Shown: in pieces, positions 1 to 64,000 of the stretch
How positions within the stretch are numbered: position 1 is the stretch's first letter
Layout: each line of letters begins with the position of its first letter
Assembly (NCBI RefSeq): GCF_025612915.1
Contig: NC_069115.1
Coordinates: forward strand, 25,855,757 to 25,919,756
Origin: Crassostrea angulata
Lineage: Eukaryota
DNA: 64,000 bases
Direction of reading: 5' to 3'
The notes under the pieces: generated by a model
The model's database searches: none
What the model was told of the DNA's origin: nothing
What the model saw: only the letters and a program-made list of their open reading frames with translations
Made by a program: the position numbers and the translations under genes

Positions 1-3000
1 AAACTAAAATCTACACTACCTGAGGATGCTTCCATTTTAATTTGAGCTTTCCTGGCGTCATAGTTTTTGAGAAGAAAGTTTAAAGATTTTCTCTATATAT
101 TCCTATGTAAAAGTTGAACCCCCAACTGTGTCCCAACCCTACCCCCGGGGACCATGATTTGAACAAACTAAATCTACTCTACCTGAGGATGCTTCCATTT
201 TAATTTGAGTTTTCTTGGCGTCATAGTTTTTGAGAAAAATGTTTAAAGATTTTCTGTATATATTCCTAAGTAAAACTTGATCCCCCTCCTGTGGCCCTAC
301 CCTACATCCGGGGACCATGATTTGAACAAACAAGAATATTCACTTCCTGAGGATGCTTCCATTTTAATTTGAGCTTTCCTGGCGTCATAGTTTTTGAGAA
401 GAAAGTTTACAGATTTTCTCTATATATTCCTATGTAAAACTTGATCCCCCTACTGTGGCCCAACCCTACCCCCGGGGACCATGATTTGAACAAACTAAAA
501 TCTACACTACCTGAGGATGTTTCCATTTTAATTTGAGCTTTCCTGGCGTCATAGTTTTTTTGAAGAATGTTTAAAGATTTTCTCTATATATTCCTAATAA
601 AACTTGATCCCCCTTCTGTGGCCCAACCCTACCCCCGGGGACCATGATTTGAACAAACTAAAATCTACACTACCTGAAGATGCTTCCATTTTAATTTGAG
701 CTTTCCTGGCGTCATAGTTTTTGAGAAGAAAGTTTAAAGATTTTCTGTATATATTCTTAAGTAAAAATTGATCCCCCTACTGTGGCCCAACCCTACCCCC
801 GGGGACCATGATTTGAACAAACTAAAATCTACACTACCTGAGGATGCTTCCATTTTAATTTGAGCTTTCCTGGCGTCATAGTTTTTGAGAAGAAAGTTTA
901 CAGATTTTTTCTATAAATTCCTATGTAAAACTTGATCCCCCTACTGTGGCCCTACCCTACCCCCGGGGACCATGATTTGAACAAACTAAAATCTACACTA
1001 CCTGAGGATGCTTCCATTTTAATTTGAGCTTTCTTGGCGCCATAGTTTTTTAGAAGAATGTTTAAAGATTTTCTCTATATATTCCTATGTAAAACTTGAT
1101 CCCCCTACTGTGGCTCAACCCTACCCCCGGGGACCATGATTTGAACAAACTAGAATCTACACTACCTGACGATAATTCCATATTAATTTGAGCTTTCCTT
1201 GCGTCATAGTTTTTGAGAAGAAAGTTTACAGATTTTCTCTATATATTCCTAAGTTAAACTTGATCCCCCTACTGTGGCCCAACCCTACCCCCGGGGACCA
1301 TGATTTGAACAAACTAAAATCTATACTACCTGAGGATGCTTCCATTTTAATTTGAGCTTTCCTGGCGTCAAAGTTTTTGAGAAGAAAGTTTAAAGATTTT
1401 CTCTATATATTCCTATGTTAAACTTGATCCCCCTACTGTGGCCCTACCCTACCCCCGGGGACCATGATTTGAACAAACTAAAATCTACACTACCTGAGGA
1501 TGCTTCCATTTTAATTTCAGCTTTCCTGGCGTCATAGTTTTTTTGATGAATGTTTAAAGATTTTCTCTATATATTCCTATTTAAAACTTGATCCCCCTAC
1601 TGTGGCCCAAACCTACCCCCGGGGACCATGATTTGAACAAACTAAAATCTACACTACCTGAGGATGCTTCCATTTTAATTTGAGCTTTCCTGGCGTCATA
1701 GTTTTTTTGAAGAATGTTTAAAGATTTTCTCTATATATTCCTAAGTAAAACTTGATCCCCCTTCTGTCGCCCAACCCTACCCCCGGGGACCATGAATTGA
1801 ACAAACTAAAATCTACACTACCTGAGGATGCTTCCATTTTAATTTGAGCTTTCCTGGCGTCATAGTTTTTGAGAAGAAAGTTTAAAGATTTTCTGTATAT
1901 ATTCTTAAGTAAAAATTGATCCCCCTACTGTGGCCCAACCCTACCCCCGGGGACCATGATTTGAACAAACTAAAATCTACACTACCTGAGGATGCTTCCA
2001 TTTTAATTTGAGCTTTCCTGGCGTCATAGTTTTTGAGAAGAAGGTTTACAGATTTTTTCTATATATTCCTATGTAAAACTTGATCCCCCTACTGTGGCCC
2101 TACCCTACCCCCGGGGACCATGATTTGAACAAACTGAAATCTACACTACCTGAGGATGCTTCCATTTTAATTTGAGTTTTCTTGGCGCCATAGTTTTTTA
2201 GAAGAATGTTTAAAGATTTTCTCTATATATTCCTATGTAAAACTTGATCCCCCTTCTGTGGCCCAACCCTACCCCCGGGGACCATGATTTGAACAAACTA
2301 AAATCTACACTACCTGAGGATGTTTCCATTTTAATTTGAGCTTTCCTGGCGTCATAGTTTTTGAGAAGAATGTTTAAAGATTTTCTCTATATATTCCTAT
2401 GTAAAACTTGATCCCCCTACTGTGGCTCAACCCTACCCCCGGGGACCATGATTTGAACAAACTAGAATCTACACTACCTGACGATAATTCCATTTTAATT
2501 TGAGCTTTCCTTGGGTCATAGTTTTTGAGAAGAAAGTTTACAGATTTTCTCTATATATTCCTAAGTAAAACTTGATCCCCCTACTGTGGCTCAACCCTAC
2601 CCCCGGGGACCATGATTTGAACAAACTAAAATCTACACTACCTGAGGATGCTTCCATTTTAATTTCAGCTTTCCTGGCGTCATAGTTTTTTTGAAGAATG
2701 TTTAAAGATTTTCTCTATATATTCCTAAGTAAAACTTGATCCCCCTTCTGTGGCCCAACCCTACCCCCGGGGACCATGATTTGAACAAACTAAAATCTAC
2801 ACTACCTGAGGATGCTTCCATTTTAATTTGAGCTTTCCTGGCGTCATAGTTTTTGAGAAGAAAGTTTAAAGATTTTCTGTATATATTCTTAAGTAAAAAT
2901 TGATCCCCCTACTGTGGCCCAACCCTACCCCCGGGGACCATGATTTGAACAAACTAAAATCTACACTATCTGAGGATGCTTCCATTTTAATTTGAGCTTT

Positions 3001-5269
3001 CCTGGCGTCATAGTTTTTGAGAAGAAAGTTTACAGATTTTTTCTATATATTCCTATGTAAAACTTGATCCCCCTACTGTGGCCCTACCCTACCCCCGGGG
3101 ACCATGATTTGAACAAACTGAAATCTACACTACCTGAGGATGCTTCCATTTTAATTTGAGTTTTCTTGGCGCCATTGTTTTTTAGAAAAATGTTTAAAGA
3201 TTTTCTCTATATATTCCTATGTAAAACTTGATCCCCCTACTGTGGCTCAACCCTACCCCCGGGGACCATGATTTGAACAAACTAGAATCTACACTACCTG
3301 ACGATAATTCCATTTTAATTTGAGCTTTCCTTGCGTCATAGTTTTTGAGAAGAAAGTTTACAGATTTTCTCTATATATTCCTAAGTAAAACTTGATCCCC
3401 CTACTGTGGCCCAATCCTACCCCCGGGGACCATGATTTGAACAAACTAAAATCTATACTACCTGAGGATGCTTCCATTTTAATTTGAGCTTTCCTGGCGT
3501 CATAGTTTCTGAGAAGAAAGTTTAAAGATTTTCTCTATATATTCCTATGTAAAACTTGATCCCCCTACTGTGGCCCTACCCTACCCCCGGGGACCATAAT
3601 TTGAACAAACTAAAATCTACACTACCTGAGGATGTTTCCATTTTAATTTGAGCTTTCCTGGCGTCATAGTTTTTTTGATGAATGTTTAAAGATTTTCTCT
3701 ATATATTCCTAAGTAAAACTTGATCCCCCTACTGTGGCCCAAACCTACCCCCGGGGACCATGATTTGAACAAACTAAAATCTACACTACCTGAGGATGCT
3801 TCCATTTTAATTTGAGCTTTCCTGTTGTCATAGTTTTTGAGAAGAAAGTCTAAAGATTTTTTCTATATATTCCTATGTAAAACTTGATCCCCCTACTGTG
3901 GCCCTACCCTACCCCCGGGGACCATGATTTGAACAAACTAAAATCTACACTACCTGAGGTTGCTTCCATTTTAATTTGAGCTTTCCTGGCGTCATTGTTT
4001 TTGAGAAGAAAGTTTACAGATTTTCTCTATATATTCCTATGTAAAAGTTGATCCCCCTACTGTGGCCCAACCCTACCCCCGGGGACCATGATTTGAACAA
4101 ACTAAAATCTACACTACCTGAGGATGCTTCCATTTTAATTTGAGCTTTCCTGGCGTCATAGTTTTTTTGATGAATGTTTAAAGATTTTCTCTATATATTC
4201 CTAAGTAAAACTTGATCCCCCTACTGTGGCCCAAATCTACCCCCGGGGACCATGATTTGAACAAACTAAAATCTACACTACCTGAGGATGCTTCCATTTT
4301 AATTTGAGCTTTCCTGTCGTCATAGTTTTTTAGAAGAAAGTCTAAAGATTTTCTCTATATATTTCTATGTAAAACTTGATCCCCCCACTGTGGCCCTACC
4401 CTACCCCCGGGGACCATGTTTTGAACAAACTAAAATCTACACTACCTGAGGATGTTTCCATTTTAATTTGAGCTTTCCTGGCGTCATAGTTTTTGAGAAG
4501 AAAGTTTAAAGATTTTTTGTATATATTCCTAAGTAAAACTTGATCCCCCTACTGTGGCCCTACCCTACATCCGGGGACCATGATTTGAACAAACAAGAAT
4601 ATTCACTACCTGAGGATGCTTCCATTTTAATTTGAGCTTTCCTGGCGTCATAGTTTTTGAGAAGAAAGTTTAAAGATTTTCTGTATATATTCTTAAGTAA
4701 AAATTGATCCCCCTACTGTGGCCCAACCCTACCCCCGGGGACCATGATTTGAACAAACTAAAATCTAAACTACCTGAGGATGCTTCCATTTTAATTTGAG
4801 CTTTCCTGGCGTCATAGTTTTTGAGAAGAAAGTTGACAGATTTTCTCTATATATTCCTATGTAAAACTTGATCCCCCTACTGTGGCCCTACCCTACCCCC
4901 GGGGACCATGATTTGAACAAACTAAAATCTACACTACCTGAGGATGCTTCCATTTTAATTTGAGCTTTCTTGGCGCCATAGTTTTTTAGAAGAATGTTTA
5001 AAGATTTTCTCTATATATTCCTATGTAAAACTTGATCCCCCTACTGTGGCTCAACCCTACCCCCGGGGACCATGATTTGAACAAACTAGAATCTACACTA
5101 CCTGACGATAATTCCATTTTAATTTGAGCTTTCCTTGCGTCATAATTTTTGAGAAGAAAGTTTACAGATTTTCTCTATATATTCCTATGTAAAACTTGAT
5201 CCCCCTACTGTGGCCCAACCCTACCCCCGGGGACCATGATTTGAACAAACTAAAATCTATACTACGTGA

Positions 5270-8200
5270 GGATGCTTCCATTTTAATTTGAGCTTTCCTG
5301 GCGTCATAGTTTTTGAGAAGAAAGTTTAAAGATTTTCTCTATATATTCCTATGTAAAACTTGATCCCCCTACTGTGGCCCTACCCTACCCCCGGGGACCA
5401 TGATTTGAACAAACTAAAATCTACACTACCTGAGGATGCTTCCATTTTAATTTGAGCTTTCCTGGCGTCAAAGTTTTTGAGAAGAAAGTTTAAAGATTTT
5501 CTGTATATATTCTTAAGTAAAAATTGATCCCCCTACTGTGGCCCAACCCTACTCCCGGGGACCATGATTTGAACAAACTAAAATCTACACTACCTGAGGA
5601 TGCTTCCATTTTAATTTGAGCTTTTCTGGCGTCATAGTTTTTGAGAAGAAAGTTTACAGATTTTTTCTATATATTCCTATGTAAAACTTGATCCCCCTAC
5701 TGTGGCCCTACCCTACCCCCGGGGACCATGATTTGAACAAACTGAAATCTACACTACCTGAGGATGCTTCCATTTTAATTTGAGTTTTCTTGGCGCCATA
5801 GTTTTTTAGAAGAATGTTTAAAGATTTTCTCTATATATTCCTATGTAAAACTTGATCCCCCTACTGTGGCTCAACCCTACCCCCGGGGACCATGATTTGA
5901 ACAAACTAGAATCTACACTACCTGACGATAATTCCATTTTAATTTGAGCTTTCCTTGCGTCATAGTTTTTGAGAAGAAAGTCTACAGATTTTCTCTATAT
6001 ATTCCTAAGTAAAACTTGATCCCCCTACTGTGGCCCAATCCTACCCCCGGGGACCATGATTTGAACAAACTAAAATCTATACTACCTGAGGATGCTTCCA
6101 TTTTAATTTGAGCTTTCCTGGCGTCATAGTTTCTGAGAAGAAAGTTTAAAGATTTTCTCTATATATTCCTATGTAAAACTTGATCCCCCTACTGTGGCCC
6201 TACCCTACCCCCGGGGACCATAATTTGAACAAACTAAAATCTACACTACCTGAGGATGTTTCCATTTTAATTTCAGCTTTCCTGGCGTCATAGTTTTTTT
6301 GATGAATGTTTAAAGATTTTCTCTATATATTCCTTAGTAAAACTTGATCCCCCTACTGTGGCCCTACCCTACCCCCGGGGACCATGATTTGAACAAACTA
6401 AAATCTACACTACCTGAGGATGCTTCCATTTTAATTTGAGCTTTCCTGTTGTCATAGTTTTTGAGAAGAAAGTCTAAAGATTTTTTCTATATATTTCTAT
6501 GTAAAACTTGATCCCCCTACTGTGGCCCTACGCTACCCCCGGGGACCATGATTTGAACAAACTAAAATCTACACTACCTGATGATGCTTCCATTTTAATT
6601 TGAGCTTTCCTGGCGTCATAGTTTTTGAAAAAATTTTAAAGATTTTCTCTATATATTCCTATGTAAAACTTGATCCCCCTACTGTGGCCCTACCCTACCC
6701 CTGGGGACTATGATTTGAACAAACTAAAATCTACACTACCTGAGGTTGCTTCCATTTAAATTTGAGCTTTCCTGGCGTCATTGTTTTTGAGAAGAAAGTT
6801 TACAGATTTTCTCTATATATTCCTATGTAAAAGTTGATCCCCCTACTGTGGCCCAAACCTACCCCCGGGGACCATGATTTGAACAAACTAAAATCTACAC
6901 TACCTGAGGATGCTTCCATTTTAATTTGAGCTTTCCTGGCGTCATAGTTTTTTTGATGAATGTTTAAAGATTTTCTCTATATATTCCTAAGTAAAACTTG
7001 ATCCCCCTACTGTGGCCCAAATCTACCCCCGGGGACCATGATTTGAACAAACTAAAATCTACACTACCTGAGGATGCTTCCATTTTAATTTGAGCTTTCC
7101 TGTCGTCATAGTTTTTTAGAAGAAAGTCTAAAGATTTTCTCTATATATTTCTATGTAAAACTTGATCCCCCCACTGTGGCCCTACCCTACCCCCGGGGAC
7201 CATGTTTTGAACAAACTAAAATCTACACTACCTGAGGATGTTTCCATTTTAATTTGAGCTTTCCTGGCGTCATAGTTTTTGAGAAGAAAGTTTAAAGATT
7301 TTTTGTATATATTCCTAAGTAAAACTTGATCCCCCTACTGTGGCCCTACCCTACATCCGGGGACCATGATTTGAACAAACAAGAATATTCACTACCTGAG
7401 GATGCTTCCATTTTAATTTGAGCTTTCCTGGCGTCATAGTTTTTGAGAAGAAAGTTTAAAGATTTTCTGTATATATTCTTAAGTAAAAATTGATCCCCCT
7501 ACTGTGGCCCAACCCTACCCCCGGGGACCATGATTTGAACAAACTAAAATCTAAACTACCTGAGGATGCTTCCATTTTAATTTGAGCTTTCCTGGCGTCA
7601 TAGTTTTTGAGAAGAAAGTTGACAGATTTTCTCTATATATTCCTATGTAAAACTTGATCCCCCTACTGTGGCCCTACCCTACCCCCGGGGACCATGATTT
7701 GAACAAACTAAAATCTACACTACCTGAGGATGCTTCCATTTTAATTTGAGCTTTCTTGGCGCCATAGTTTTTTAGAAGAATGTTTAAAGATTTTCTCTAT
7801 ATATTCCTATGTAAAACTTGATCCCCCTACTGTGGCTCAACCCTACCCCCGGGGACCATGATTTGAACAAACTAGAATCTACACTACCTGACGATAATTC
7901 CATTTTAATTTGAGCTTTCCTTGCGTCATAGTTTTTGAGAAGAAAGTTTACAGATTTTCTCTAAATATTCCTAAGTAAAACTTGATCCCCCTACTGTGGC
8001 CCAACCCTACCCCCGGGGACCATGATTTGAACAAACTAAAATCTACACTACCTGAGGATGCTTCCATTTTAATTTGAGCATTCCTGGCGTCATAGTTTTT
8101 TTGATGAATGTTTAAAGATTTTCTCTATATATTCCTAAGTAAAACTTGATCCCCCTACTGTGGCCCAAATCTACCCCCGGGGACCATGATTTGAACAAAC

Positions 8201-11200
8201 TAAAATCTACACTACCTGAGGATGCTTCCATTTTAATTTGAGCTTTCCTGTCGTCATAGTTTTTTAGAAGAAAGTCTAAATATTTTCTCTATATATTTCT
8301 ATGTAAAACTTAATCCCCCTACTGTGGCCCTACCCTACCCCCGGGGACCATGTTTTGAACAAACTTAAATCTACACTACCTGAGGATGCTTCCATTTTAA
8401 TTTGAGCTTTCCTGGCGTCATAGTTTTTGAGAAGAAAGTTTAAAGATTTTTTGTATATATTCCTAAGTAAAACTTGATCCCCCTACTGTGGCCCTACCCT
8501 ACATCCGGGGACCATGATTTGAACAAACTAGAATCTACACTACCTGACGATAATTCCATTTTAATTTGAGCTTTCCTTGCGTCATAGTTTTTGCGAAGAA
8601 AGTTTACAGATTTTCTCTATATATTCCTATGTAAAACTTGATCCCCCTACTGTGGCCCAACCCTACCCCCGGGGACCATGATTTGAACAAACTAAAATCT
8701 ATACTACCTGAGGATGCTTCCATTTTAATTTGAGCTTTCCTGGCGTCATAGTTTTTGAGAAGAAAGTTTAAAGATTTTCTCTATATATTCCTAAGTAAAA
8801 CTTGATCCCCCTACTGTGGCCCAAATCTACCCCCGGGGACCATGATTTGAACAAACTTAAATCTACACTACCTGAGGATGCTTCCATTTTAATTTGAGCT
8901 TTCCTGGCGTCATAGTTTTTGAGAAGAAAGTTTAAAGATTTTTTGTATATATTCCTAAGTAAAACTTGATCCCCCTACTGTGGCCCTACCCTACATCCGG
9001 GGACCATGATTTGAACAAACTAGAATCTACACTACCTGACGATAATTCCATTTTAATTTGAGCTTTCCTTGCGTCATAGTTTTTGAGAAGAAAGTTTACA
9101 GATTTTCTCTATATATTCCTATGTAAAACTTGATCCCCCTACTGTGGCCCAACCCTACCCCCGGGGACCATGATTTGAACAAACTAAAATCTATACTACC
9201 TGAGGATGCTTCCATTTTAATTTGAGCTTTCCTGGCGTCATAGTTTTTGAGAAGAAAGTTTAAAGATTTTCTCTATATATTCCTATGTAAAACTTGATCC
9301 CCCTACTGTGGCCCTACCCTACCCCCCGGGGACCATAATTTGAACAAACTAAAATCTACACTACCTGAGGATGCTTCCATTTTAATTTCAGCTTTCCTGG
9401 CGTCATAGTTTTTTTGATGAATGTTTAATGATTTTCTCTATATATTCCTAAGTAAAACTTGATCCCCCTACTGTGGCCCAAACCTACCCCCGGGGACCAT
9501 GATTTGAACAAACTAAAATCTACACTACCTGAGGATGCTTCCATTTTAATTTGAGCTTTCCTGTTGTCATAGTTTTTGAGAAGAAAGTCTAAAGATTTTT
9601 TCTATATATTCCTATGTAAAACTTGATCCCCCTACTGTGGCCCTACCCTACCCCCGGGGACCATGATTTGAACAAACTAAAATCTACACTACCTGAGGAT
9701 GCTTCCATTTTAATTTGAGCTTTCCTGGCGTCATAGTTTTTGAAAAAAGTTTAAAGATTTTCTCTATATATTCCTATGTAAAACTTGATCCCCCTACTGT
9801 GGCCCTACCCTACCCCTGGGGACTATGATTTGAACAAACTAAAATCTACACTACCTGAGGTTGCTTCCATTTTAATTTGAGCTTTCCTGGCGTCATTGTT
9901 TTTGAGAAGAAAGTTTAGAGATTTTCTCTATATATTCCTATGTAAAACTTGATCCCCCTACTGTGGCCCAACCCTACCCCCGGGGACCATGTTTTGAACA
10001 AACTAAAATCTACACTACCTGAGGATGCTTCCATTTTAATTTGAGCTTTCCTGTCGTCATAGTTTTTTAGAAGAAAGTCTAAAGATTTTCTCTATATATT
10101 TCTATGTAAAACTTGATCCCCCCACTGTGGCCCTGCCCTACCCCCGGGGACCATGTTTTGAACAAACTAAAATCTACACTACCTGAGGATGTTTCCATTT
10201 TAATTTGAGCTTTCCTGGCGTCATAGTTTTTGAGAAGAAAGTTTAAAGATTTTTTGTATATATTCCTAAGTAAAACTTGATCCCCCTACTGTGGCCCTAC
10301 CCTACATCCGGGGACCATGATTTGAACAAACAAGAATATTCACTACCTGAGGATGCTTCCATTTTAATTTGAGCTTTCCTGGCGTCATAGTTTTTGAGAA
10401 GAAAGTTTAAAGATTTTCTGTATATATTCTTAAGTAAAAATTGATCCCCCTACTGTGGCCCAACCCTACCCCCGGGGACCATGATTTGAACAAACTAAAA
10501 TCTACACTACCTGAGGATGCTTTCATTTTAATTTGAGCTTTCCTGGCGTCATAGTTTTTGAGAAGAAAGTTGACAGATTTTCTCTATATATTCCTATGTA
10601 AAACTTGATCCCCCTACTGTGGCCCTACACTACCCCCGGGGACCATGATTTGAACAAACTAAAATCTACACTACCTGAGGATGCTTCCATTTTAATTTGA
10701 GCTTTCTTGGCGCCATAGTTTTTTAGAGGAATGTTTAAAGATTTTCTCTATATATTCCTATGTAAAACTTGATCCCCCTACTGTGGCTCAACCCTACCCC
10801 CGGGGACCATGATTTGAACAAACTAGAATCTACACTACCTGACGATAATTCCATTTTAATTTGAGCTTTCCTTGCGTCATAGTTTTTGAGAAGAAAGTTT
10901 ACAGATTTTCTCTATATATTCCTAAGTAAAACTTGATCCCCCTACTGTGACCCAACCCTACCCCCGGGGACCATGATTTGAACAAACTAAAATCTATACT
11001 ACCTGAGGATGCTTCCATTTTAATTTGAGCTTTCCTGGCGTCATAGTTTTTGAGAAGAAAGTTGACAGATTTTCTCTATATATTCCTATGTAAAACTTGA
11101 TCCCCCTACTGTGGCCCTACCCTACCCCCGGGGACCATGATTTGAACAAACTAAAATCTACACTACCTGAGGATGCTTCCATTTTAATTTGAGCTTTCCT

Positions 11201-26600: not shown

Positions 26601-27000
26601 AAATCTACACTACCTGAGGATGCTTCCATTTTAATTTGAGCTTTCCTGTTGTCATAGTTTTTTTGGAAGAAAGTCTAAAGATTTTCTCTATATTTCTAAG
26701 TAAAACTTGAACCCCATACTGTGGCCCTACTCTACATCCGGGGACCATGATTTGAACAAACTAAAATCTACACTACCTGAGGATGCTTCCATTTTAATTT
26801 CAGCTTTCCTGGCGTCATAGTGTTTCTGAAGAAAGTTTTAAGATTTTCTCTATATATTCCTATGTAAAACTTGATCCCCCTACTGTGGCCCAACACTACC
26901 CCCGGGGACCATGATTTGAACAAACTAAAATCTACACTACCTGAGGATGCTTCCATTTTAATTTGAGCTTTCCTGGCGTCATAGTGTTTCAGAAGAAAGT
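20580..27000. repeat. Region of ~3.25-kb and ~2.59-kb HOR repetition (20-mer and 16-mer)
   Basis: The truncated 131-bp marker monomer sits at 20583, 23831 and 26421, giving spacings of 3248 and 2590 bp. The 62-aa pseudo-ORFs at 20928 and 24176 are identical, and the one at 26768 is nearly so. The third copy lacks one monomer relative to the second, near 24350-24540. Confidence 0.8.
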
Positions 27001-33540: not shown

Positions 33541-33543
<3 letters not shown>

Positions 33544-33644
33544 AAACTCCTTAGGCTACATGTAAAGAACACACTAGTTCTACATTTACATATATGTTGT
33601 GTATGTTCTGACCAGGGCTGCGGAATGATAAAGAATAGGTAATA

Positions 33645-34739: not shown

Positions 34740-34742
34740 CTA
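34740..34742. other. Right target-site duplication (CTA)
   Basis: See the left TSD. A 3-bp TSD is characteristic of CACTA/EnSpm/CMC elements. Confidence 0.6.
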
Positions 34743-52500: not shown

Positions 52501-54300
52501 CACTACCTGAGGATGCTTCCATTTTAATTTGAGCTTTCCTGGCGTCATTGTTTTTGAGAAGAAAGTTTACAGATTTTCTCTATATATTCCTATGTAAAAC
52601 TTGATCCCCCTGCTGTGGCCCAACTCTACCCCTGGGGACCATGATTTGAACAAACTAAAATCTATACTACCAGAGGTTACTTCCATTTTAATTTGAGCTT
52701 TCCTGGCGTCATAGTTTTTGAGAAGAAAGTTGACAGATTTTCTCTATATATTCCTATGTAAAACTTGATCCCCCTACTGTGGCCCAACCCTACCCCCGGG
52801 GACCATGATTTGAACAAACTAAAATCTACACTACCTGAGGATGCTTCCATTTTAATTTGAGCATTCCTGGCGTCATAGTTTTTTTGATGAATGTTTAAAG
52901 ATTTTCTCTATATATTCCTAAGTAAAACTTGATCCCCCTACTGTGGCCCAAATCTACCCCCGGGGACCATGATTTGAACAAACTAAAATCTACACTACCT
53001 GAGGATGCTTCCATTTTAATTTGAGCTTTCCTGTCGTCATAGTTTTTTAGAAGAAAGTCTAAAGATTTTCTCTATATATTTCTATGTAAAACTTGATCCC
53101 CCTACTGTGGCCCTACCCTACCCCCGGGGACCATGATTTGAACAAACTTAAATCTACACTACCTGAGGATGCTTCCATTTTAATTTGAGCTTTCCTGGCG
53201 TCATAGTTTTTGAGAAGAAAGTTTACAGATTTTCTCTATATATTCCTATGTAAAACTTGATCCCCCTACTGTGGCCCAACCCTACCCCCGGGGACCATGA
53301 TTTGAACAAACTAAAATCTACACTACCTGAGGATGCTTCCATTTTAATTTGAGCTTTCCTGGCGTCATAGTTTTTTTGATGAATGTTTAAAGATTTTCTC
53401 TATATATTCCTAAGTAAAACTTGATCCCCCTACTGTGGCCCAAATCTACCCCCGGGGACCATGATTTGAACAAACTAAAATCTACACTACCTGAGGATGC
53501 TTCCATTTTAATTTGAGCTTTCCTGTCGTCATAGTTTTTTAGAAGAAAGTCTAAAGATTTTCTCTATATATTTCTATGTAAAACTTGATCCCCCCACTGT
53601 TGCCCTACCCTACCCCCGGGGACCATGATTTGAACAAACTTAAATCTACACTACCTGAGGATGCTTCCATTTTAATTTGAGCTTTCCTGGCGTCATAGTT
53701 TTTGAGAAGAAAGTTTAAAGATTTTTTGTATATATTCCTAAGTAAAACTTGATCCCCCTACTGTGGCCCTACCATACATCCGGGGACCATGATTTGAACA
53801 AACAAGAATATTCACTTCCTGAGGATGCTTCCATTTTAATTTGAGCTTTCCTGGCGTCATAGTTTTTGAGAAGAAAGTTTAAAGATTTTCTCTATATATT
53901 CCTATGTAAAACTTGATCCCCCTACTGTGGCCCAACTCTACCCCCGGGGACCATGATTTGAACAAACTAAAATCTATACTACCAGAGGATACTTCCATTT
54001 TAATTTGAGCTTTCCTGGCGTCATAGTTTTTGAGAAGAAAGTTGACAGATGTTCTCTATATATTCCTATGTAAAACTTGATCCCCCTACTGTGGCCCAAC
54101 CCTACCCCCGGGGACCATAATTTGAACAAAGAAGAATATTCACTTTCTGATAATGCTTCCATTTTAATTTGAGCTTTCCTGGCGTCATAGTTTTTGAAAA
54201 GAAAGTTTACAGATTTTCTCTATATATTCTTATGTAAAACTTGATCCCCCTACTGTGGCCCAACTCTACCCCCGGGGACCATAATTTGAACAAACTAAAA
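49600..54300. repeat. Copy A of a second large duplication. It starts at an offset of ~7653 bp relative to 57255-61460, with a 3-monomer indel
   Basis: The rare variant 'gttttgtacaatcttaaatc' at 49731 recurs at ~57391 (7660-bp offset). The truncated monomer at 50843 recurs at 58495. ORFs 50856/58509, 51471/59124 and 51840/59493 are identical at a 7653-bp offset. After about 53200 the offset drops to 7161 bp, because copy A has ~490 bp extra. Confidence 0.75.
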
Positions 54301-57254
54301 TCTACACTACCTGAGGATGCTTCCATTTTAATTTGAGCTTTCCTGGCGTCATAGTTTTTGAGAAGAAAGTTTACAGATTGTCTGTATATATTCCTAAGTA
54401 AAAATTGATCCCCCTACTGTGGCCCTACCCTACCCCCGGGGACCATGATTTGAACAAACTAAAATCTACACTACCTGAGGATGCTTCCATTTTAATTTGA
54501 GCTTTCTCGGCGCCATAGTTTTTTAGAAGAATGTTTACAGATTTTCTCTATATATTCCTATGTAAAACTTGATCCCTTTACTGTGGCTCAACCCTACCCC
54601 CGGGGTTCATGATTTGAACAAACTAGAATCTACACTACCTAACGATAATTCCATTTTAATTTGAGCTTTCCTTGCGTCATAGTTTTTGAAAAGAAAGTTT
54701 ACAGATTTTCTCTATATATTCCTAAGTAAAACTTGATCCCCCTACTGTGGCCCAACCCTACCCCCGGGGACCATGATTTGAACAAACTAAAATCTATACT
54801 ACCTGAGGATGCTTCCATTTTTTTTTAGTTTGAGCTTTCCTGGCGTCATAGTTTTTGAGAAGAAAGTTTAAAGATTTTCTCTATATATTCCTATGTAAAA
54901 CTTGATCCCCCTACTGTGGCCCTACCCTACCCCCGGGGACCATGATTTGAACAAACTAAAATCTACACTACCTGAGGATGCTTCCATTTTAATTTGAGCT
55001 TTCCTGGCGTCATAGTTTTTTTGATGAATGTTTAAAGATTTTCTCTATATATTCCTAAGTAAAACTTGATCCCCCTACTGTGGCCCAAATCTACCCCCGG
55101 GGACCATGATTTGAACAAACTAAAATCTACACTACCTGAGGATGCTTCCATTTTAATTTGAGCTTTCCTGTCGTCATAGTTTTTTAGAAGAAAGTCTAAA
55201 GATTTTCTCTATATATTTCTATGTAAAACTTGATCCCCCTACTGTGGCCCTACCCTACCCCCGGGGACCATGTTTTGAACAAACTTAAATCTACACTACC
55301 TGAGGATGCTTCCATTTTAATTTGAGCTTTCCTGGCGTCATAGTTTTTGAGAAGAAAGTTTAAAGATTTTTTGTATATATTCCTATGGAAAACTTGATCC
55401 CCCTACTGTGGCCCTACCCTACATCCGGGGACCATGATTTGAACAAACAAGAATATTCACTTCCTGAGGATGCTTCCATTTTAATTTGAGCTTTCCTGGC
55501 GTCATAGTTTTTGAGAAGAAAGTTTAAAGATTTTCTCTATATATTCCTATGTAAAACTTGATCCCCCTACTGTGGCCCAACTCTACCCCCGGGGACCATG
55601 ATTTGAACAAACTAAAATCTATACTACCAGAGGATACTTCCATTTTAATTTGAGCTTTCCTGGCGTCATAGTTTTTGAGAAGAAAGTTGACAGATTTTCT
55701 CTATATATTCCTATGTAAAACTTGATCCCCCTACTGTGGCCCAACCCTACCCCCGGGGACCATAATTTGAACAAACAAGAATATTCACTTTCTGATAATG
55801 CTTCCATTTTAATTTGAGCTTTCCTGGCGTCATAGTTTTTGAAAAGAAAGTTTACAGATTTTCTCTATATATTCTTATGTAAAACTTGATCCCCCTACTG
55901 TGGCCCAACCCTACCCCCGGGGACCATGATTTGAACAAACTAAAATCTACACTACCTGAGGATGCTTCCATTTTAATTTGAGCTTTCTTGGCGTCATAGT
56001 TTTTGAGAAGAAAGTTTAAAGATTTTCTCTATACATTCCTATGTAAAAGTTGAACCCCCTACTGTGGCCCAAACCTACGCCCCCGGGGACCATGATTTGA
56101 ACAAACTAAAATCTTCTCTACCTGAGGATGCTTCCATTTTAATTTGAGCTTTCCTGGCGCCATAGTTTTTGAGAAGAAAGTTTAAAGATTTTCTCTATAT
56201 ATTCCTATGTAAAACTTGATCCCCCTACTGTGGCCCAACCCTACCCCCGGGGACCATAATTTGAACAAAATAAAACCTACACTACCTGAGGATGCTTCCA
56301 TTTTAATTTGAGCTTTCCTGGCGTCATTGTTTTTGAGAAGAAAGTTTACAGATTTTCTCTATATATTCCTATGTAAAACTTGATCCCCCTACTGTGCAAA
56401 CTAAAATCTACACTACCTGAGGATGCTTCCATTTTAATTTGAGCTTTCCTGGCGTCATAGTTTTTGAGAAGAAAGTTTACAGATTTTTTCTATATATTCC
56501 TATGTAAAACTTGATCCCCCTACTGTGGCCCTACCCTACCCCCGGGGACCATGATTTGAACAAACTAAAATCTACACTACCTGAGGATGCTTCCATTTTA
56601 ATTTGAGCTTTCTCGGCGCCATAGTTTTTTAGAAGAATGTTTAAAGATTTTCTCTATATATTCCTATGTAAAACTTGATCCCCCTACTGTGGCTCAACCC
56701 TACCCCCGGGGTTCATGATTTGAACAAACTAGAATCTACACTACCTGACGATAATTCCATTTTAATTTGAGCTTTCCTTGCGTCATAGTTTTTGAAAAGA
56801 AAGTTTACAGATTTTCTCTATATATTCCTAAGTAAAACTTGATCCCCCTACTGTGGCCCAACCCTACCCCCGGGGACCATGATTTGAACAAACTAAAATC
56901 TATACTACCTGAGGATGCTTCCATTTTAGTTTGAGCTTTCCTGGCGTCATAGTTTTTGAGAAGAAAGTTTAAAGATTTTCTCTATATATTCCTATGTAAA
57001 ACTTGATCCCCCTACTGTGGCCCTACCCTACCCCCGGGGACCATGATTTGAACAAACTAAAATCTACACTACCTGAGGATGCTTCCATTTTAATTTGAGC
57101 TTTCCTGGCGTCATAGTTTTTTTGATGAATGTTTAAAGATTTTCTCTATATATTCCTAAGTAAAACTTGATCCCCCTACTGTGGCCCAAATCTATCCCCG
57201 GGGACCATGATTTGAACAAACTAAAATCTACACTACCTGAGGATGCTTCCATTT

Positions 57255-60200
57255 TAATTTGAGCTTTCCTGTCGTCATAGTTTTTTAGAAGAAAGTCTAA
57301 AGATTTTCTCTATATATTTCTATGTAAAACTTGATCCCCCTACTGTGGCCCTACCCTACCCCCGGGGACCATGTTTTGAACAATCTTAAATCTACACTAC
57401 CTGAGGATGCTTCCATTTTAATTTGAGCTTTCCTGGCGTCATAGTTTTTGAGAAGAAAGTTTAAAGATTTTTTGTATATATTCCTATGTTAAACTTGATC
57501 CCCCTACTGTGGCCCTACCCTACATCCGGGGACCATGATTTGAACAAACAAGAATTTTCACTTCCTGAGGATGCTTCCATTTTAATTTGAGCTTTCCTGG
57601 CGTCATAGTTTTTGAGAAGAAAGTTTAAAGATTTTCTCTATATATTCCTATGTAAAACTTGATCCCCCTACTGTGGCCCAACTCTACCCCCGGGGACCAT
57701 GATTTGAACAAACTAAAATCTATACTACCAGAGGATACTTCCATTTTAATTTGAGCTTTCCTGGCGTCATAGTTTTTGAGAAGAAAGTTGACAGATTTTC
57801 TCTATATATTCCTATGTAAAACTTGATCCCCCTACTGTGGCCCAACCCTACCCCCGGGGACCATAATTTGAACAAACAAGAATATTCACTTTCTGATAAT
57901 GCTTCCATTTTAATTTGAGCTTTCCTGGCGTCATAGTTTTTGAAAAGAAAGTTGACAGATTTTCTCTATATATTCTTATGTAAAACTTGATCCCCCTACT
58001 GTGGCCCAACCCTACCCCCGGGGACCATGATTTGAACAAACTAAAATCTACACTACCTGAGGATGCTTCCATTTTAATTTGAGCTTTCTTGGCGTCATAG
58101 TTTTTTAGAAGAAAGTTTAAAGATTTTCTCTATACATTCCTATGTAAAAGTTGAACCCCCTACTGTGGCCCAAACCTACGCCCCCGGGGACCATGATTTG
58201 AACAAACTAAAATCTTCTCTACCTGAGGATGCTTCCATTTTAATTTGAGCTTTCCTGGCGCCATAGTTTTTTAGAAGAAAGTTTAAAGATTTTCTCTATA
58301 TATTCCTATGTAAAACTTGATCCCCCTACTGTGGCCCAACCCTACCCCCGGGGACCATGATTTGAACAAAATAAAACCTACACTACCTGAGGATGCTTCC
58401 ATTTTAATTTGAGCTTTCCTGGCGTCATTGTTTTTGAGAAGAAAGTTTACAAATTTTCTCTATATATTCCTATGTAAAACTTGATCCCCCTACTGTGCAA
58501 ACTAAAATCTACACTACCTGAGGATGCTTCCATTTTAATTTGAGCTTTCCTGGCGTCATAGTTTTTTTGAAGAATGTATAAAGATTTTCTCTATATATTC
58601 CTAAGTAAAACTTGATCCCCCTACTGTGGCCCAACCCTACCCCTGGGGACCATGATTTGAACAAACTAAAATCTACACTACCTGAGGATGCTTCCATTTT
58701 AATTTGAGCTTTCCTGGCGTCATAGTTTTTGAGAAGAAAGTTTAAAGATTTTCTCTATATATTCCTATGTAAAACTTGATCCCCCTACTGTGGCCCAACC
58801 CTACCCCCGGGGACCATGATTTGAACAAACTAAAATCTACACTACCTGAGGATGCTTCCATTTTAATTTGAGCTTTCCTGGCGTCATAGTTTTTTTGATG
58901 AATGTTTAAAGATTTTCTCTATATATTCCTAAGTAAAACTTGATCCCCCTACTGTGGCCCAAATCTACCCCCGGGGACCATGATTTGAACAAACTAAAAT
59001 CTACACTACCTGAGGATGCTTCCATTTTAATTTGAGCTTTCCTGTCGTCATAGTTTTTTAGAAGAAAGTCTAAAGATTTTCTCTATATATTTCTATGTAA
59101 AACTTGATCCCCCTACTGTGGCCCTACCCTACCCCCGGGGACCATGATTTGAACAAACTTAAATCTACACTACCTGAGGATGCTTCCATTTTAATTTGAG
59201 CTTTCCTGGCGTCATAGTTTTTGAGAAGAAAGTTTAAAGATTTTTTGTATATATTCCTAAGTAAAACTTGATCCCCCTGCTGTGGCCCTACCGTACATCC
59301 AGGGACCATGATTTGAACAAACAAGAATATTCACTTCCTGAGGATGCTTCCATTTGAATTTGAGCTTTCCTGGCGTCATAGTTTTTGAGAAGAAAGTTTA
59401 AAGATTTTCTCTATATATTCCTATGTAAAACTTGATCCCCCTACTGTGGCCAAACTCTATCCCTGGGGACCATGATTTGAACAAACTAAAATCTATACTA
59501 CCAGAGGATACTTCCATTTTAATTTGAGCTTTCCTGGCGTCATAGTTTTTGAGAAGAAAGTTGACAGATGTTCTCTATATATTCCTATGTAAAACTTGAT
59601 CCCCCTACTGTGGCCCAACCCTACCCCCGGGGACCATAATTTGAACAAACAAGAATATTCACTTTCTGATAATGCTTCCATTTTAATTTGAGCTTTCCTG
59701 GCGTCATAGTTTTTGAAAAGAAAGTTTACAGATTTTCTCTATATATTCTTATGTAAAACTTGATCCCCCTACTGTGGCCCAACCCTACCCCCGGGGACCA
59801 TGATTTGAATAAACTAAAATCTACACTACCTGAGGATGCTTCCATTTTAATTTGAGCTTTCTTGGCGTCATAGTTTTTGAGAAGAAAGTTTAAAGATTTT
59901 CTCTATATATTCCTATGTAAAAGTTGAACCCCCTACTGTGGCCCAAACCTACGCCCCCGGGGACCATGATTTGAACAAACTAAAATCTACTCTACCTGAG
60001 GATGCTTCCATTTTAATTTGAGCTTTCCTGGCGCCATAGTTTTTGAGAAGAAAGTTTAAAGATTTTCTCTATATATACCTATGTAAAACTTGATCCCCCT
60101 ACTGTGGCCCTACCCTACCCCTGGGGACCATGATTTGAACAAACTAAAATCTACACTACCTGAGGATGCTTCCATTTTAATTTGAGCTTTCCTGGCGTCA

Positions 60201-61460
60201 TTGTTTTTGAGAAGAAAGTTTACAGATTTTCTCTATATATTCCTATGTAAAACTTGATCCCCCTGCTGTGGCCCAACTCTACCCCTGGGGACCATGATTT
60301 GAACAAACTAAAATCTATACTACCAGAGGTTACTTCCATTTTAATTTGAGCTTTCCTGGCGTCATAGTTTTTGAGAAGAAAGTTGACAGATTTTCTCTAT
60401 ATATTCCTATGTAAAACTTGATCCCCCTACTGTGGCCCAACCCTACCCCCGGGGACCATGATTTGAACAAACTAAAATCAACACTACCTGAGGATGCTTC
60501 CATTTTAATTTCAGCTTTCCTGGCGTCATAGTTTTTTTGATGAATGTTTAAAGATTTTCTCTATATATTCCTAAGTAAAACTTGATCCCCCTACTGTGGC
60601 CCAAACCTACCCCCGGGGACCATGATTTGAACAAACTAAAATCTACACTACCTGAGGATGCTTCAATTTTAATTTGAGCTTTCCTGTCGTCATAGTTTTT
60701 TAGAAGAAAGTCTAAAGATTTTCTCTATATATTCCTAAGTAAAACTTGATCCCCCTACTGTGGCCCTACCCTACCCCTGGGGACTAGGATTTGAACAAAC
60801 TTAAATCTACACTACCTGAGGATGCTTCCATTTTAATTTGAGCTTTCCTGGCGTCATAGTTTTTGAGAAGAAAGTTTAAAGATTTTTTGTATATATTCCT
60901 AAGTAAAACTTGATCCCCCTACTGTGGCCCTACCGTACATCCGGGGACCATGATTTGAACAAACAAGAATATTCACTTCCTGAGGATGCTTCCATTTGAA
61001 TTTGAGATTTCCTGGCGTCATAGTTTTTGAGAAGAAAGTTTAAAGATTTTCTCTATATATTCCTATGTAAAACTTGATCCCCCTACTGTGGCCCAACTCT
61101 ACCCCCGGGGACCATGATTTGAACAAACTAAAATCTATACTACCAGAGGATACTTCCATTTTAATTTGAGCTTTCCTGGCGTCATAGTTTTTGAAAAGAA
61201 AGTTGACAGATTTTCTCTATATATTCCTATGTAAAACTTGATCCCCCTACTGTGGCCCAACCCTACCCCCGGGGACCATAATTTGAACAAACAAGAATAT
61301 TCACTTTCTGATAATGCTTCCATTTTAATTTGAGCTTTCCTGGCGTCATAGTTTTTGAAAAGAAAGTTTACAGATTTTCTCTATATATTCTTATGTAAAA
61401 CTTGATCCCCCTACTGTGGCCCAACCCTACCCCCGGGGACCAGGATTTGAACAAACTAAA
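57255..61460. repeat. Copy B of the second large duplication
   Basis: See copy A. Confidence 0.75.
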
Positions 61461-64000
61461 ATCTATACTACCTGAGGATACTTCCATTTTAATTTGAGCT
61501 TTCCTGGCGTCATAGTTTTTGAAAAGAAAGTTTACAGATTTTCTCTATATATTCTTATGTAAAACTTGATCCCCCTACTGTGGCCCAACCCTACCCCCGG
61601 GGACCATGATTTGAACAAACTAAAATCTACACTACCTGAGGATGCTTCCATTTTAATTTGAGCTTTCTTGGCGTCATAGTTTTTGAGAAGAAAGTTTAAA
61701 GATTTTCTCTATATATTCCTATGTAAAACTTGATCCCCCTACTGTGGCCCTACCCTACCCCGGGGACCATGATTTGAACAAACTAAAATCAACACTACCT
61801 GAGGATGCTTCCATTTTAATTTCAGCTTTCCTGGCGTCATAGTTTTTTTGATGAATGTTTAAAGATTTTCTCTATATATTCTTAAGTAAAACTTGATCCC
61901 CCTACTGTGGCCCGAACCTACCCCCGGGGACCATGATTTGAACAAACTAAAATCTACACTACCTGAGGATGCTTCCATTTTAATTTGAGCTTTCCTGTCA
62001 TCATAGTTTTTTAGAAGAAAGTCTAAAGATTTTCTCTATATATTTCTATGTAAAACTTGATCCCCCTACTGTGGCCCTACCCTACCCCCGGGGACCATGA
62101 TTTGAACAAACTTAAATCTACACTACCTGAGGATGCTTCCATTTTAATTTGAGCTTTCCTGGCGTCATAGTTTTTGAGAAGAAAGTTTACAGATTTTTTG
62201 TATATATTCCTAAGTGAAACTTGATCCCCCTGCTGTGGCCCTACCGTACATCCAGGGACCATGATTTGAACAAACAAGAATATTCACTTCCTGAGGATGC
62301 TTCCATTTGAATTTGAGCTTTCCTGGCGTCATAGTTTTTGAGAAGAAAGTTTAAAGATTTTCTCTATATATTCCTATGTAAAACTTGATCCCCCTACTGT
62401 GGCCAAACTCTATCCCTGGGGACCATGATTTGAACAAACTAAAATCTATACTACCAGAGGATACTTCCATTTTAATTTGAGCTTTCCTGGCGTCATAGTT
62501 TTTGAGAAGAAAGTTGACAGATGTTCTCTATATATTCCTATGTAAAACTTGATCCCCCTACTGTGGCCCAACCCTACCCCCGGGGACCATAATTTGAACA
62601 AACAAGAATATTCACTTTCTGATAATGCTTCCATTTTAATTTGAGCTTTCCTGGCGTCATAGTTTTTGAAAAGAAAGTTTACAGATTTTCTCTATATATT
62701 CTTATGTAAAACTTGATCCCCCTACTGTGGCCCAACCCTACCCCCGGGGACCAGGATTTGAACAAACTAAAATCTATACTACCTGAGGATACTTCCATTT
62801 TAATTTGAGCTTTCCTGGCGTCATAGTTTTTGAAAAGAAAGTTTACAGATTTTCTCTATATATTCTTATGTAAAACTTGATCCCCCTACTGTGGCCCAAC
62901 CCTACCCCCGGGGACCATGATTTGAACAAACTAAAATCTACACTACCTGAGGATGCTTCCATTTTAATTTGAGCTTTCTTGGCGTCATAGTTTTTGAGAA
63001 GAAAGTTTACAGATTTTCTCTATATATTCCTATGTAAAACTTGATCCCCCTACTGTGGCCCTACCCTACCCCCGGGGACCATGATTTGAACAAACTAAAA
63101 TCAACACTACCTGAGGATGCTTCCATTTTAATTTCAGTTTTCCTGGCGTCATAGTTTTTTTGATGAATGTTTAAAGATTTTCTCTATATATTCTTAAGTA
63201 AAACTTGATCCCCCTACTGTGGCCCGAACCTACCCCCGGGGACCATGATTTGAACAAACTAAAATCTACACTACCTGAGGATGCTTCCATTTTAATTTGA
63301 GCTTTCCTGTCATCATAGTTTTTTAGAAGAAAGTCTAAAGATTTTCTCTATATATTTCTATGTAAAACTTGATCCCCCTACTGTGGCCCTACCCTACCCC
63401 CGGGGACCATGATTTGAACAAACTTAAATCTACACTACCTGAGGATGCTTCCATTTTAATTTGAGCTTTCCTGGCGTCATAGTTTTTGAGAAGAAAGTTT
63501 ACAGATTTTTTGTATATATTCCTAAGTGAAACTTGATCCCCCTGCTGTGGCCCTACCGTACATCCAGGGACCATGATTTGAACAAACAAGAATATTCACT
63601 TCCTGAGGATGCTTCCATTTGAATTTGAGCTTTCCTGGCGTCATAGTTTTTGAGAAGAAAGTTTAAAGATTTTCTCTATATATTCCTATGTAAAACTTGA
63701 TCCCCCTACTGTGGCCAAACTCTATCCCTGGGGACCATGATTTGAACAAACTAAAATCTATACTACCAGAGGATACTTCCATTTTAATTTGAGCTTTCCT
63801 GGCGTCATAGTTTTTGAGAAGAAAGTTGACAGATGTTCTCTATATATTCCTATGTAAAACTTGATCCCCCTACTGTGGCCCAACCCTACCCCCGGGGACC
63901 ATAATTTGAACAAACAAGAATATTCACTTTCTGATAATGCTTCCATTTTAATTTGAGCTTTCCTGGCGTCATAGTTTTTGAAAAGAAAGTTTACAGATTT
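61100..64000. repeat. Recently homogenised 8-monomer HOR (1312 bp), at least 2.2 near-identical tandem copies, running off the window end
   Basis: The rare variant 'ccaggatttg' occurs at 61441 and 62751. ORFs 62077/63389 and 62446/63758 are identical, and 61135/62446 are offset by 1311-1312 bp. The same 8-mer block is also present at ~51450-52750 and ~59100-60400. Confidence 0.8.

What the first reader, a model, noticed from the sequence alone, without database searches (positions are those of the whole stretch)
1..64000. Multi-scale higher-order repeat architecture: 8-mer, 16-mer, 20-mer and 47-mer blocks
Adjacent monomers differ by several percent. Rare variant monomers recur at fixed long offsets: 1312 bp (61.1-64 kb), 2590 and 3248 bp (20.6-27 kb, 39.8-42.4 kb), and 7672 bp (5.3-20.6 kb) and 7653 bp (49.6-61.5 kb). 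This means HORs are nested within larger segmental duplications. The 3' end of the window (61-64 kb) is the most homogeneous, suggesting the most recent amplification.
Basis: seen in the sequence. Interest (0 to 1): 0.6.

Follow-up and report, generated by a model that had tools for sequence, protein, structure and literature searches.

The report
Oyster satellite array with nested duplications
The window is 64 kb of the known oyster satellite DNA Cg170/CgiSat01a; its 164-bp units have been re-copied in blocks of 8 to about 47 units (and larger at long range), giving a real but irregular patchwork of mostly two-copy duplications, which is ordinary for a long satellite array.

Summary
Blocks recur at 1311/1312, 2592/2594, 3248, 7653 and 7672 bp, far beyond chance: 157 diagonal runs of at least 4 monomers at 97.5% identity or more, against 0.47 when monomer order is shuffled.

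The array is the published Crassostrea gigas satellite CgiSat01a of the Cg170/HindIII family; the window consensus matches it at 162 of 164 positions.

It is not a regular higher-order repeat. No multimer has more than about 2.1 tandem copies inside the window, and no single period dominates. It is a mosaic of nested, in-phase segmental duplications.

The claim that the 3' end is the most homogeneous and most recent is wrong. The youngest event is the 47-unit, 7672-bp duplication at 5.2-20.6 kb, with 3 substitutions in 7720 bp. The 8-mer at 61-64 kb has 5 differences in 1476 bp.

A three-way comparison at the 47-unit junction shows a hybrid monomer. This is the expected product of one in-register unequal homologous exchange.

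A 3062-bp non-coding CACTA-like transposon interrupts the array at 31678-34739.

Verdict: a known satellite with a known kind of dynamics, so low to moderate interest.

The parts
1..31677 (+). CgiSat01a (Cg170/HindIII family) satellite array, left part; 164-bp monomers head to tail
   Evidence: TRF period 164. Anchor spacing is 164 in 306 of 362 intervals. The window consensus is 162/164 identical to the published CgiSat01a consensus.
34740..64000 (+). Same satellite array, right part; it resumes in phase after the insertion
   Evidence: The monomer split by the insertion is restored once the insert and one CTA copy are removed.
5246..12917 (+). 47-unit (7672-bp) block, copy 1
   Evidence: At offset 7672 there are only 3 substitutions in 7720 bp, at 5744, 6582 and 8594.
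12918..20589 (+). 47-unit block, copy 2. Its first monomer is a hybrid: bases 12918-12938 carry the variants of the monomer at 20590, and bases from 12987 on carry those of the monomer at 5246.
   Evidence: The exchange point lies in 12939-12986.
19129..22376 (+). 20-unit (3248-bp) block, copy 1
   Evidence: 21 substitutions against copy 2, 99.35%.
22377..25624 (+). 20-unit block, copy 2
25625..26903 (+). Third, partial copy of the 20-unit block, lacking 4 monomers. This gives the 2592-bp spacing (the '16-mer').
   Evidence: 23033-24311 vs 25625-26903 is 99.1%. Class string.
35707..42692 (+). Long-range copy (43 monomers) of 16507-26739 with one 20-unit block fewer
   Evidence: Offset 19200: 16507-22376 vs 35707-41575, 99.2%. 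Offset 15951: 22377-26739 vs 38328-42692, 99.0%. It is the outgroup to the two local 20-unit copies, with site patterns 8/13/21.
44822..53125 (+). About 8-kb block, copy 1 (patchy)
   Evidence: Runs of 9, 12 and 26 monomers match 52798-60778 at offsets 7976, 7981 and 7653 with 99.2-99.7% identity.
52798..60778 (+). About 8-kb block, copy 2. The offset drops from 49 to 47 units through a 2-monomer length difference just 3' of the truncated monomer.
61107..64000 (+). 8-unit (1311/1312-bp) block, about 2.1-2.2 copies up to the end of the window
   Evidence: 61107-62581 vs 62418-63893: 4 substitutions and 1 indel, 99.66%.
12787..12917 (+). 131-bp truncated monomer (33-bp deletion, junction CTACTGTG|CAAAC). 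It is one of ten copies. The others are at 20459-20589, 23707-23837, 26299-26429, 39658-39788, 42252-42382, 48285-48415, 50714-50844, 56266-56396 and 58367-58497.
   Evidence: TRF period-131 rows. Anchor spacing of 295 occurs ten times. The junction and the left-flank variants are identical in all ten copies.
31678..34739 (.). 3062-bp non-coding insertion; a non-autonomous CACTA/EnSpm-like DNA transposon
   Evidence: Ends are CACTACTGG...CCAGTAGTG. It has 266-nt terminal inverted repeats, 97% complementary, built of ~10-bp repeats. No credible ORF.
31675..31677 (.). Target-site duplication CTA, left copy (the right copy is at 34740-34742)
   Evidence: Removing the insert and one CTA restores ...ACAAACTAGAATC..., a monomer variant seen elsewhere in the array.

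Best explanation
The window is one long, single-orientation array of the oyster satellite CgiSat01a (Cg170/HindIII family). Its internal structure is a mosaic of nested segmental duplications made in monomer phase.

Blocks of about 5 to 47 monomers were duplicated at different times and with different offsets, and in one case a 43-monomer block was copied about 16-19 kb away. Later events copied regions that already contained earlier duplications.

The most likely mechanism is unequal homologous exchange between misaligned copies of the array. This could be sister-chromatid or homologue crossover, or an equivalent template switch during break-induced repair. Older duplicated motifs then provide the long stretches of high identity that seed the next exchange.

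Shown here: the blocks, their identities, their relative order, and the in-phase hybrid monomer at the 47-unit junction. Inferred: the enzymatic pathway, and that the other events arose the same way.
For: Identity of the satellite: the window consensus is 162/164 identical to CgiSat01a.

Blocks beyond chance: 157 runs against 0.47 in shuffles, with the longest 47 against 5. Under the CEN180-type definition there are 401 block pairs and 98% of monomers lie in at least one block, against 21.7 pairs and 26% in shuffles.

No single-monomer duplication: the fraction of near-identical pairs at lag 1 is 0.3% against 3.7% expected, and 0 of 1000 shuffles were as low. No monomer has its nearest twin at lag 1.

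Phase and orientation:
- All copies are direct and in phase.
- Only one phase-breaking junction type exists in 64 kb, and it has a single origin, with the same junction and the same left-flank variants in all ten copies.

Mechanism at base level: the first monomer of 47-unit copy 2 carries the 5' variants of the monomer that follows copy 2 (20590) and the 3' variants of the first monomer of copy 1 (5246). The exchange lies in a 48-bp stretch that is identical in all three. This is exactly the product predicted for one in-register unequal exchange.

Nesting and order of events:
- The 20-unit copies differ from each other by 21 sites.
- They differ from the remote copy by 29 and 34 sites.
- So the local duplication is younger than the long-range one.
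- Divergences range from 0.04% to about 1%.
Against: Only one event is resolved to a base-level breakpoint.

The long-range copies (offsets 15.9-26.9 kb) are not tandem. They need either later turnover between the copies or a non-reciprocal, conversion-like or replicative transfer.

Crossover, gene conversion and break-induced replication cannot be told apart from one sequence.

The assembly cannot be checked against reads here. A 7.7-kb tandem copy at 99.96% identity is the kind of feature that assemblers sometimes create or collapse.
Confidence: 0.82

Rival explanations
1. This is a regular higher-order repeat array of the alpha-satellite type. One or a few fixed multimers (8, 16, 20 or 47 units) would be reiterated many times and homogenised as units.
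For: Copies of a block are 99.0-99.96% identical, while monomers inside a block are about 93% identical. The 8-unit block runs into the end of the window, so it could continue beyond it.
Against: The maximum tandem copy number is 2.0-2.1 for every multimer. Nearest-twin lags are spread from 2 to 49 or more, with no dominant period. Lag 47, the strongest, involves only 21.5% of pairs, and these come from two unrelated blocks.
Confidence: 0.05
2. The near-identical tandem copies, above all the 47-unit pair, are assembly artefacts (false duplication in a long-read assembly of a satellite) rather than real structure.
For: There are only 3 differences in 7720 bp. No read data are available here to validate the assembly.
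Against: The junction is a clean, biologically sensible hybrid monomer rather than a ragged join. The other blocks are 0.3-1% diverged, which assemblers resolve easily. The same architecture recurs in independent regions of the window.
Confidence: 0.08
3. Blocks were amplified through extrachromosomal circles and rolling-circle replication and then reinserted. The 131-bp truncated monomer would be the circle-closure scar.
For: The truncated junction sits at the boundary of successive units (12918, 20590, 23838, 26430), and it is the only phase-breaking join in the array. Homology between junction copies ends at or within about one monomer 3' of the junction.
Against: Units between successive junctions differ in length (7672, 3248, 2592 bp and others) and in content. 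The 47-unit event is fully explained by an in-phase exchange that merely carried an older junction along. Other monomers, such as class U, are equally frequent block ends.
Confidence: 0.05

Closest known systems
Cg170/HindIII satellite of Crassostrea gigas, subfamily CgiSat01a (PMC8268682; Clabby et al. 1996 as cited there)
   Same: The monomer is 164 bp. The window consensus is 162/164 identical to the published consensus on the same strand. The arrangement is tandem, head to tail. AT content is about 61% against the published 59.8%.
   Different: The published analysis of older assemblies found mostly short, Helitron/Helentron-embedded arrays. Its longest standalone array was 232 monomers (~40 kb, with a gap). 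Here at least 372 monomers fill 64 kb without reaching either end of the array. Neither of the two oyster satellitome papers I text-searched for the terms 'HOR' and 'higher-order' describes higher-order structure.
Arabidopsis CEN180 'HOR blocks' (bioRxiv 10.1101/2021.05.30.446350)
   Same: Under the same operational definition (at least 3 consecutive monomers with at most 5 differences, repeated in the same orientation), the array gives many block pairs of variable size and distance. Nearly all monomers lie in at least one block, and divergence rises weakly with distance. A transposon has invaded the array.
   Different: The satellite and the organism are different. Blocks here reach 47 monomers within only 64 kb, and the mean is 4.8 against 3.69. 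The interrupting element is a DNA transposon, not an ATHILA retrotransposon.
Primate alpha-satellite higher-order repeat arrays (established knowledge)
   Same: Multimeric blocks are far more similar to each other than the monomers within a block are to one another.
   Different: There is no constant period, and there are at most about 2 tandem copies per block. Monomers within a block differ by about 7%, not the 20-40% typical of alpha satellite (the alpha-satellite figure is from my own knowledge).
CACTA / EnSpm (CMC) DNA transposons, for the insertion only (established knowledge of the superfamily)
   Same: The termini begin 5'-CACTA. There is a 3-bp target-site duplication, long terminal inverted repeats, and arrays of short subterminal repeats.
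   Different: There is no transposase ORF, so it is non-autonomous. Homology to a named element was not tested.

Membership tests
Cg170/HindIII satellite, subfamily CgiSat01a | Monomer of 164 bp repeated head to tail | tested here: met
   TRF period 164. 306 of 362 anchor intervals are exactly 164 bp.
Cg170/HindIII satellite, subfamily CgiSat01a | Sequence matches the published CgiSat01a consensus rather than CgiSat01b | tested here: met
   162/164 identical to CgiSat01a and 141/168 to CgiSat01b. Individual monomers average 95.3% identity to CgiSat01a.
Cg170/HindIII satellite, subfamily CgiSat01a | Origin in Crassostrea (Magallana) gigas, at a centromeric location | not testable with these tools
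   The window contains no unique flanking sequence. Close relatives such as C. angulata carry the same family. Centromeric FISH and CenH3 data come from the literature only.
Cg170/HindIII satellite, subfamily CgiSat01a | Array flanked by Helitron/Helentron boxes (element-associated) or standalone | not testable with these tools
   Neither end of the array lies within the window.
Classical higher-order repeat array (alpha-satellite type) | Copies of the multimer are much more alike than the monomers within it | tested here: met
   99.0-99.96% between copies against 92.9% between monomers.
Classical higher-order repeat array (alpha-satellite type) | The same multimer reiterated many times in tandem | tested here: not met
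   At most 2.0-2.1 tandem copies for any lag from 2 to 60.
Classical higher-order repeat array (alpha-satellite type) | One period dominates the array | tested here: not met
   Nearest-twin lags are spread over 2-49 and beyond. The best lag (47) covers 21.5% of pairs, from two unrelated blocks.
HOR blocks in the CEN180 sense (block pairs) | At least 3 consecutive monomers with at most 5 differences each, repeated elsewhere on the same strand, in excess of chance | tested here: met
   401 block pairs, mean 4.8 monomers, maximum 47; 98% of monomers are included. Shuffles gave 21.7 pairs and 26%.
CACTA/EnSpm-type DNA transposon (the insertion) | Terminal inverted repeats beginning CACTA, and a 3-bp target-site duplication | tested here: met
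   Ends are CACTACTGG.../...CCAGTAGTG, flanked by CTA on each side. The inverted repeats are 266 nt and 97% complementary.
CACTA/EnSpm-type DNA transposon (the insertion) | Subterminal arrays of short repeats | tested here: met
   Arrays with a 10-bp period at 31713-31930 and, inverted, at 34487-34704.
CACTA/EnSpm-type DNA transposon (the insertion) | Encodes, or is homologous to an element that encodes, a CACTA-type transposase | not tested
   The only ORF over 100 aa is the 142-aa one at 34343-34771, and about two thirds of it lies in the right terminal repeat. No homology search against transposon libraries was possible.

The most novel reading that the evidence does not exclude
The single phase-breaking junction in the array (the 131-bp truncated monomer) may act as a barrier or hotspot that focuses exchange points. 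All ten copies share 4-10 or more monomers on the left. On the right they continue into four different contexts, with homology ending within about 0-1 monomer of the junction. This would be expected if branch migration between misaligned arrays stalls at the 33-bp heterology.

A related reading is that the two independent large duplications share a preferred length of about 47 units (7.65-7.98 kb).
Probability: 0.1. Interest if true: 0.5.

Novelty: new member of a known kind. Interest (0 to 1): 0.27.

Why it matters
The published oyster satellitome work describes C. gigas as lacking classical long satellite arrays. CgiSat01 was the only candidate, and 232 monomers was the longest array recovered. 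This window shows at least 64 kb of that satellite behaving like a classical array, with recent multi-kilobase block duplications and a transposon insertion.

It supplies two practical things:
- Concrete markers for following one array across individuals and assemblies: the junction 24-mer CCCCCTACTGTGCAAACTAAAATC and the block map.
- One cleanly resolved unequal-exchange product.

It does not change what is understood about how satellites evolve.

Tried and rejected
- Whole-window autocorrelation decays with lag because of small indels and the 33-bp deletions. It under-reports long offsets, so I replaced it with local-window and monomer-matrix analyses.
- Self-BLAST with a 96% identity filter returned a single merged alignment and was uninformative.
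- A full-text search for monomer substrings in papers found nothing. The match came from a supplementary FASTA file.
- Scans of the metagenome collection for the junction 24-mer and for a conserved 34-mer of the monomer, and of the viral collection for the 34-mer, gave no exact match. These collections appear to hold no oyster DNA, so the negative result for the junction says nothing.
- Literature searches for an oyster telomere-to-telomere centromere or HOR description found none in the library.
- The idea that the truncated junction is a unique recombination hotspot was tested. Block right-ends are enriched there (51/95 at the junction against 162/573 elsewhere). Several ordinary monomers, such as class U, are equal or stronger block ends, so the evidence is weak.
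- Recurrent independent origin of the 33-bp deletion was rejected. There is no microhomology at its ends, and all ten copies share the same left-flank variants.
Full report
WHAT IS THERE

The whole window is one tandem array of a 164-bp, AT-rich unit, all on the + strand. GC is about 38.5% with a constant negative GC skew. It is interrupted once, at about 31.7-34.7 kb.

Cutting at a conserved 18-mer gives 363 anchors, and 306 of the 362 spacings are exactly 164 bp. Ten spacings of 295 bp mark a 131-bp truncated unit, and one spacing of 3229 bp marks the insertion. I cut the array into 372 monomers and aligned them. Mean pairwise identity is 92.9%, and adjacent monomers average 92.5%.

IDENTITY OF THE SATELLITE

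The window consensus matches the published consensus CgiSat01a at 162 of 164 positions. [quoted passage not shown] The match to the sister subfamily CgiSat01b is 141 of 168.

[quoted passage not shown] It is mostly embedded in Helitron/Helentron elements as short arrays, and the longest standalone array in the assemblies then available was 232 monomers (about 40 kb, with a gap). Related oysters carry the same family. The species therefore cannot be fixed from this window alone.

CHECK OF THE OBSERVATION

It is present ten times, with an identical junction and identical left-flank variants.

The monomer identity matrix shows the corresponding off-diagonal blocks:
- 47 units at offset 7672: 3 substitutions in 7720 bp, 99.96%.
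- 20 units at offset 3248: 21 substitutions, 99.35%.
- A 16-unit variant at offset 2592, seen twice: 99.0-99.1%.
- 26 units at offset 7653: 35 substitutions in 4235 bp, 99.17%.
- 8 units at offset 1311/1312: 5 differences in 1476 bp, 99.66%.

This is far beyond chance. There are 157 diagonal runs of at least 4 monomers at 97.5% or more, with the longest 47. After shuffling monomer order the mean is 0.47 runs and the longest is 5.

Missed:
- Long-range, non-tandem copies. 16507-22376 is repeated at 35707-41575 (offset 19200, 99.2%). 22377-26739 is repeated at 38328-42692 (offset 15951, 99.0%). 8835-12917 is repeated at 35707-39788 (offset 26872, 99.4%).
- The region 44.8-60.8 kb is one duplication of about 8 kb. 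Its offset changes from 7976-7981 bp (49 units) to 7653 bp (47 units) through a two-monomer length difference.
- The array carries a 3062-bp insertion.

Wrong: the statement that 61-64 kb is the most homogeneous and most recent part. Mean pairwise identity at 60.4-63.4 kb is 92.0%, among the lowest in the window. The 8-unit copies are about nine times more diverged than the 47-unit copies.

IS IT A HIGHER-ORDER REPEAT?

In the classical sense, no. For every lag from 2 to 60 monomers the longest tandem run corresponds to at most 2.0-2.1 copies. Nearest-twin lags are spread from 2 to 49 and beyond, with no dominant period. The strongest lag (47) involves 21.5% of monomer pairs, contributed by two blocks of different content.

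In the relaxed sense used for Arabidopsis CEN180, yes. That definition asks for at least 3 consecutive monomers with at most 5 differences, repeated on the same strand. Here there are 401 block pairs, mean 4.8 monomers, maximum 47, and 98% of monomers lie in at least one block. Order shuffles give 21.7 pairs and 26%. Divergence between blocks rises only weakly with distance (rho 0.23).

Amplification works on multi-monomer blocks only. Adjacent monomers are significantly less alike than random pairs (z = -5.4). Near-identical neighbours are 0.3% against 3.7% expected, and none of 1000 shuffles was as low.

NESTING AND ORDER OF EVENTS

The class string of monomers shows a core motif ending in the truncated monomer. 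It recurs ten times within blocks of different size.

The region 19.1-26.9 kb holds two 20-unit copies followed by a third copy lacking four monomers. The pair [20-unit][16-unit] was copied as part of a 43-monomer block to 35.7-42.7 kb. A three-way comparison gives 21 differences between the two local 20-unit copies and 29 and 34 to the remote copy, with site patterns 8/13/21. The local 20-unit duplication is therefore younger than the long-range copy. The 47-unit duplication, which overlaps the source region, is the youngest of all.

MECHANISM

All copies are direct and in monomer phase. The only phase-breaking join in 64 kb is the 33-bp deletion. It has no microhomology at its ends and a single origin.

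The 47-unit event can be resolved to the base:
- The monomer that begins copy 2 (12918) carries, in its first 21 bases, the variants of the monomer that follows copy 2 (20590), not those of the first monomer of copy 1 (5246).
- From base 12987 on it carries the variants of copy 1, not those of 20659 onward.
- The intervening 48 bases are identical in all three.

This is exactly the product expected from one in-register unequal exchange between two monomers 7672 bp apart. The older truncated junction was carried along as a passenger.

I infer, but did not show, that the other blocks arose the same way. I also infer that earlier duplicated motifs (1-1.6 kb at 97-99% identity, against about 93% background) are the preferred substrates for later exchanges. 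Crossover, conversion-type transfer and break-induced replication cannot be separated with one sequence. The non-tandem long-range copies need either later turnover or a non-reciprocal transfer.

AN ODDITY I COULD NOT SETTLE

All ten junction copies share at least 4-5 monomers on the left, but on the right they fall into four contexts. Homology between contexts ends within about 0-1 monomer of the junction. This could mean that the 33-bp heterology focuses exchange points.

A direct test gives only weak support. Block right-ends are about twice as frequent at the junction as elsewhere (51/95 against 162/573). Several ordinary monomers are equal or stronger block ends. I keep this as the low-probability novel reading.

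THE INSERTION

The insertion at 31678-34739 (3062 bp) has these features:
- Termini CACTACTGG...CCAGTAGTG.
- Flanked by a 3-bp duplication of CTA (31675-31677 and 34740-34742). Removing it restores a normal monomer variant.
- 266-nt terminal inverted repeats, 97% complementary, built of ~10-bp repeats.
- Internal GA/TC microsatellites.
- No credible ORF.

By the textbook criteria of the superfamily it reads as a non-autonomous CACTA/EnSpm-like DNA transposon. Homology to a named element was not tested. None of the paralogous satellite blocks carries it.

CAVEATS

- The assembly cannot be checked against reads here. The 99.96% tandem pair is the feature most exposed to assembly error, although its clean hybrid junction argues that it is real.
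- The window reaches neither end of the array. The centromeric position, the flanks and the continuation of the 8-unit block are therefore unknown.
- The public collections reachable here hold no exact match to this satellite.

VERDICT

The satellite is already known. The kind of architecture is well known from other long satellite arrays. It is absent from the two oyster satellitome papers I text-searched for 'HOR' and 'higher-order', and my searches of the held library found no oyster HOR description. I file it as a new member of a known kind, of low to moderate interest.

Noticed in passing
window 31678-34739 (target duplications at 31675-31677 and 34740-34742): A 3062-bp non-coding insertion with CACTA-type termini and a 3-bp CTA target duplication. 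It has 266-nt inverted repeats made of ~10-bp subterminal repeats, and internal (GA)n and (TC)n tracts. It is probably a non-autonomous CACTA/EnSpm-like transposon. It is a single copy, absent from all paralogous satellite blocks.
   Followed up: partly
whole window, monomer matrix: Adjacent monomers are less similar than random monomer pairs: 92.47% against 92.94 +/- 0.09%, z = -5.4. Near-identical neighbours are almost absent, at 0.3% against 3.7% expected.
   Followed up: yes
first base after the junction at 12918, 20590, 23838, 26430, 39789, 42383, 48416, 50845, 56397 and 58498: All ten copies of the truncated monomer share several monomers of left flank but continue into four different right-hand contexts. 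Homology ends within about one monomer of the junction. Block ends are about twice as frequent there as elsewhere, but other monomers are equally strong boundaries.
   Followed up: partly
5246-20589 and 44822-60778: Two large tandem duplications of different content have almost the same period: 47 units (7672 bp) and 47-49 units (7653-7981 bp). A rough estimate of the chance of such a coincidence is 0.05.
   Followed up: no
whole window, monomer alignment: Variation among monomers is concentrated at about 15 of the 164 positions (for example consensus positions 87-88, 102, 124 and 155). Transversions outnumber transitions, 1491 to 836. The least variable stretch is CATTTTAATTTGAGC.
   Followed up: no
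28052-31489 vs 35379-39147: Satellite blocks on either side of the transposon are paralogous: runs of 11 and 7 monomers at 98.4-99.3% identity, with offsets of 7327 and 7656 bp that include the insert. The transposon lies between the copies, so its age relative to that duplication cannot be read off.
   Followed up: partly
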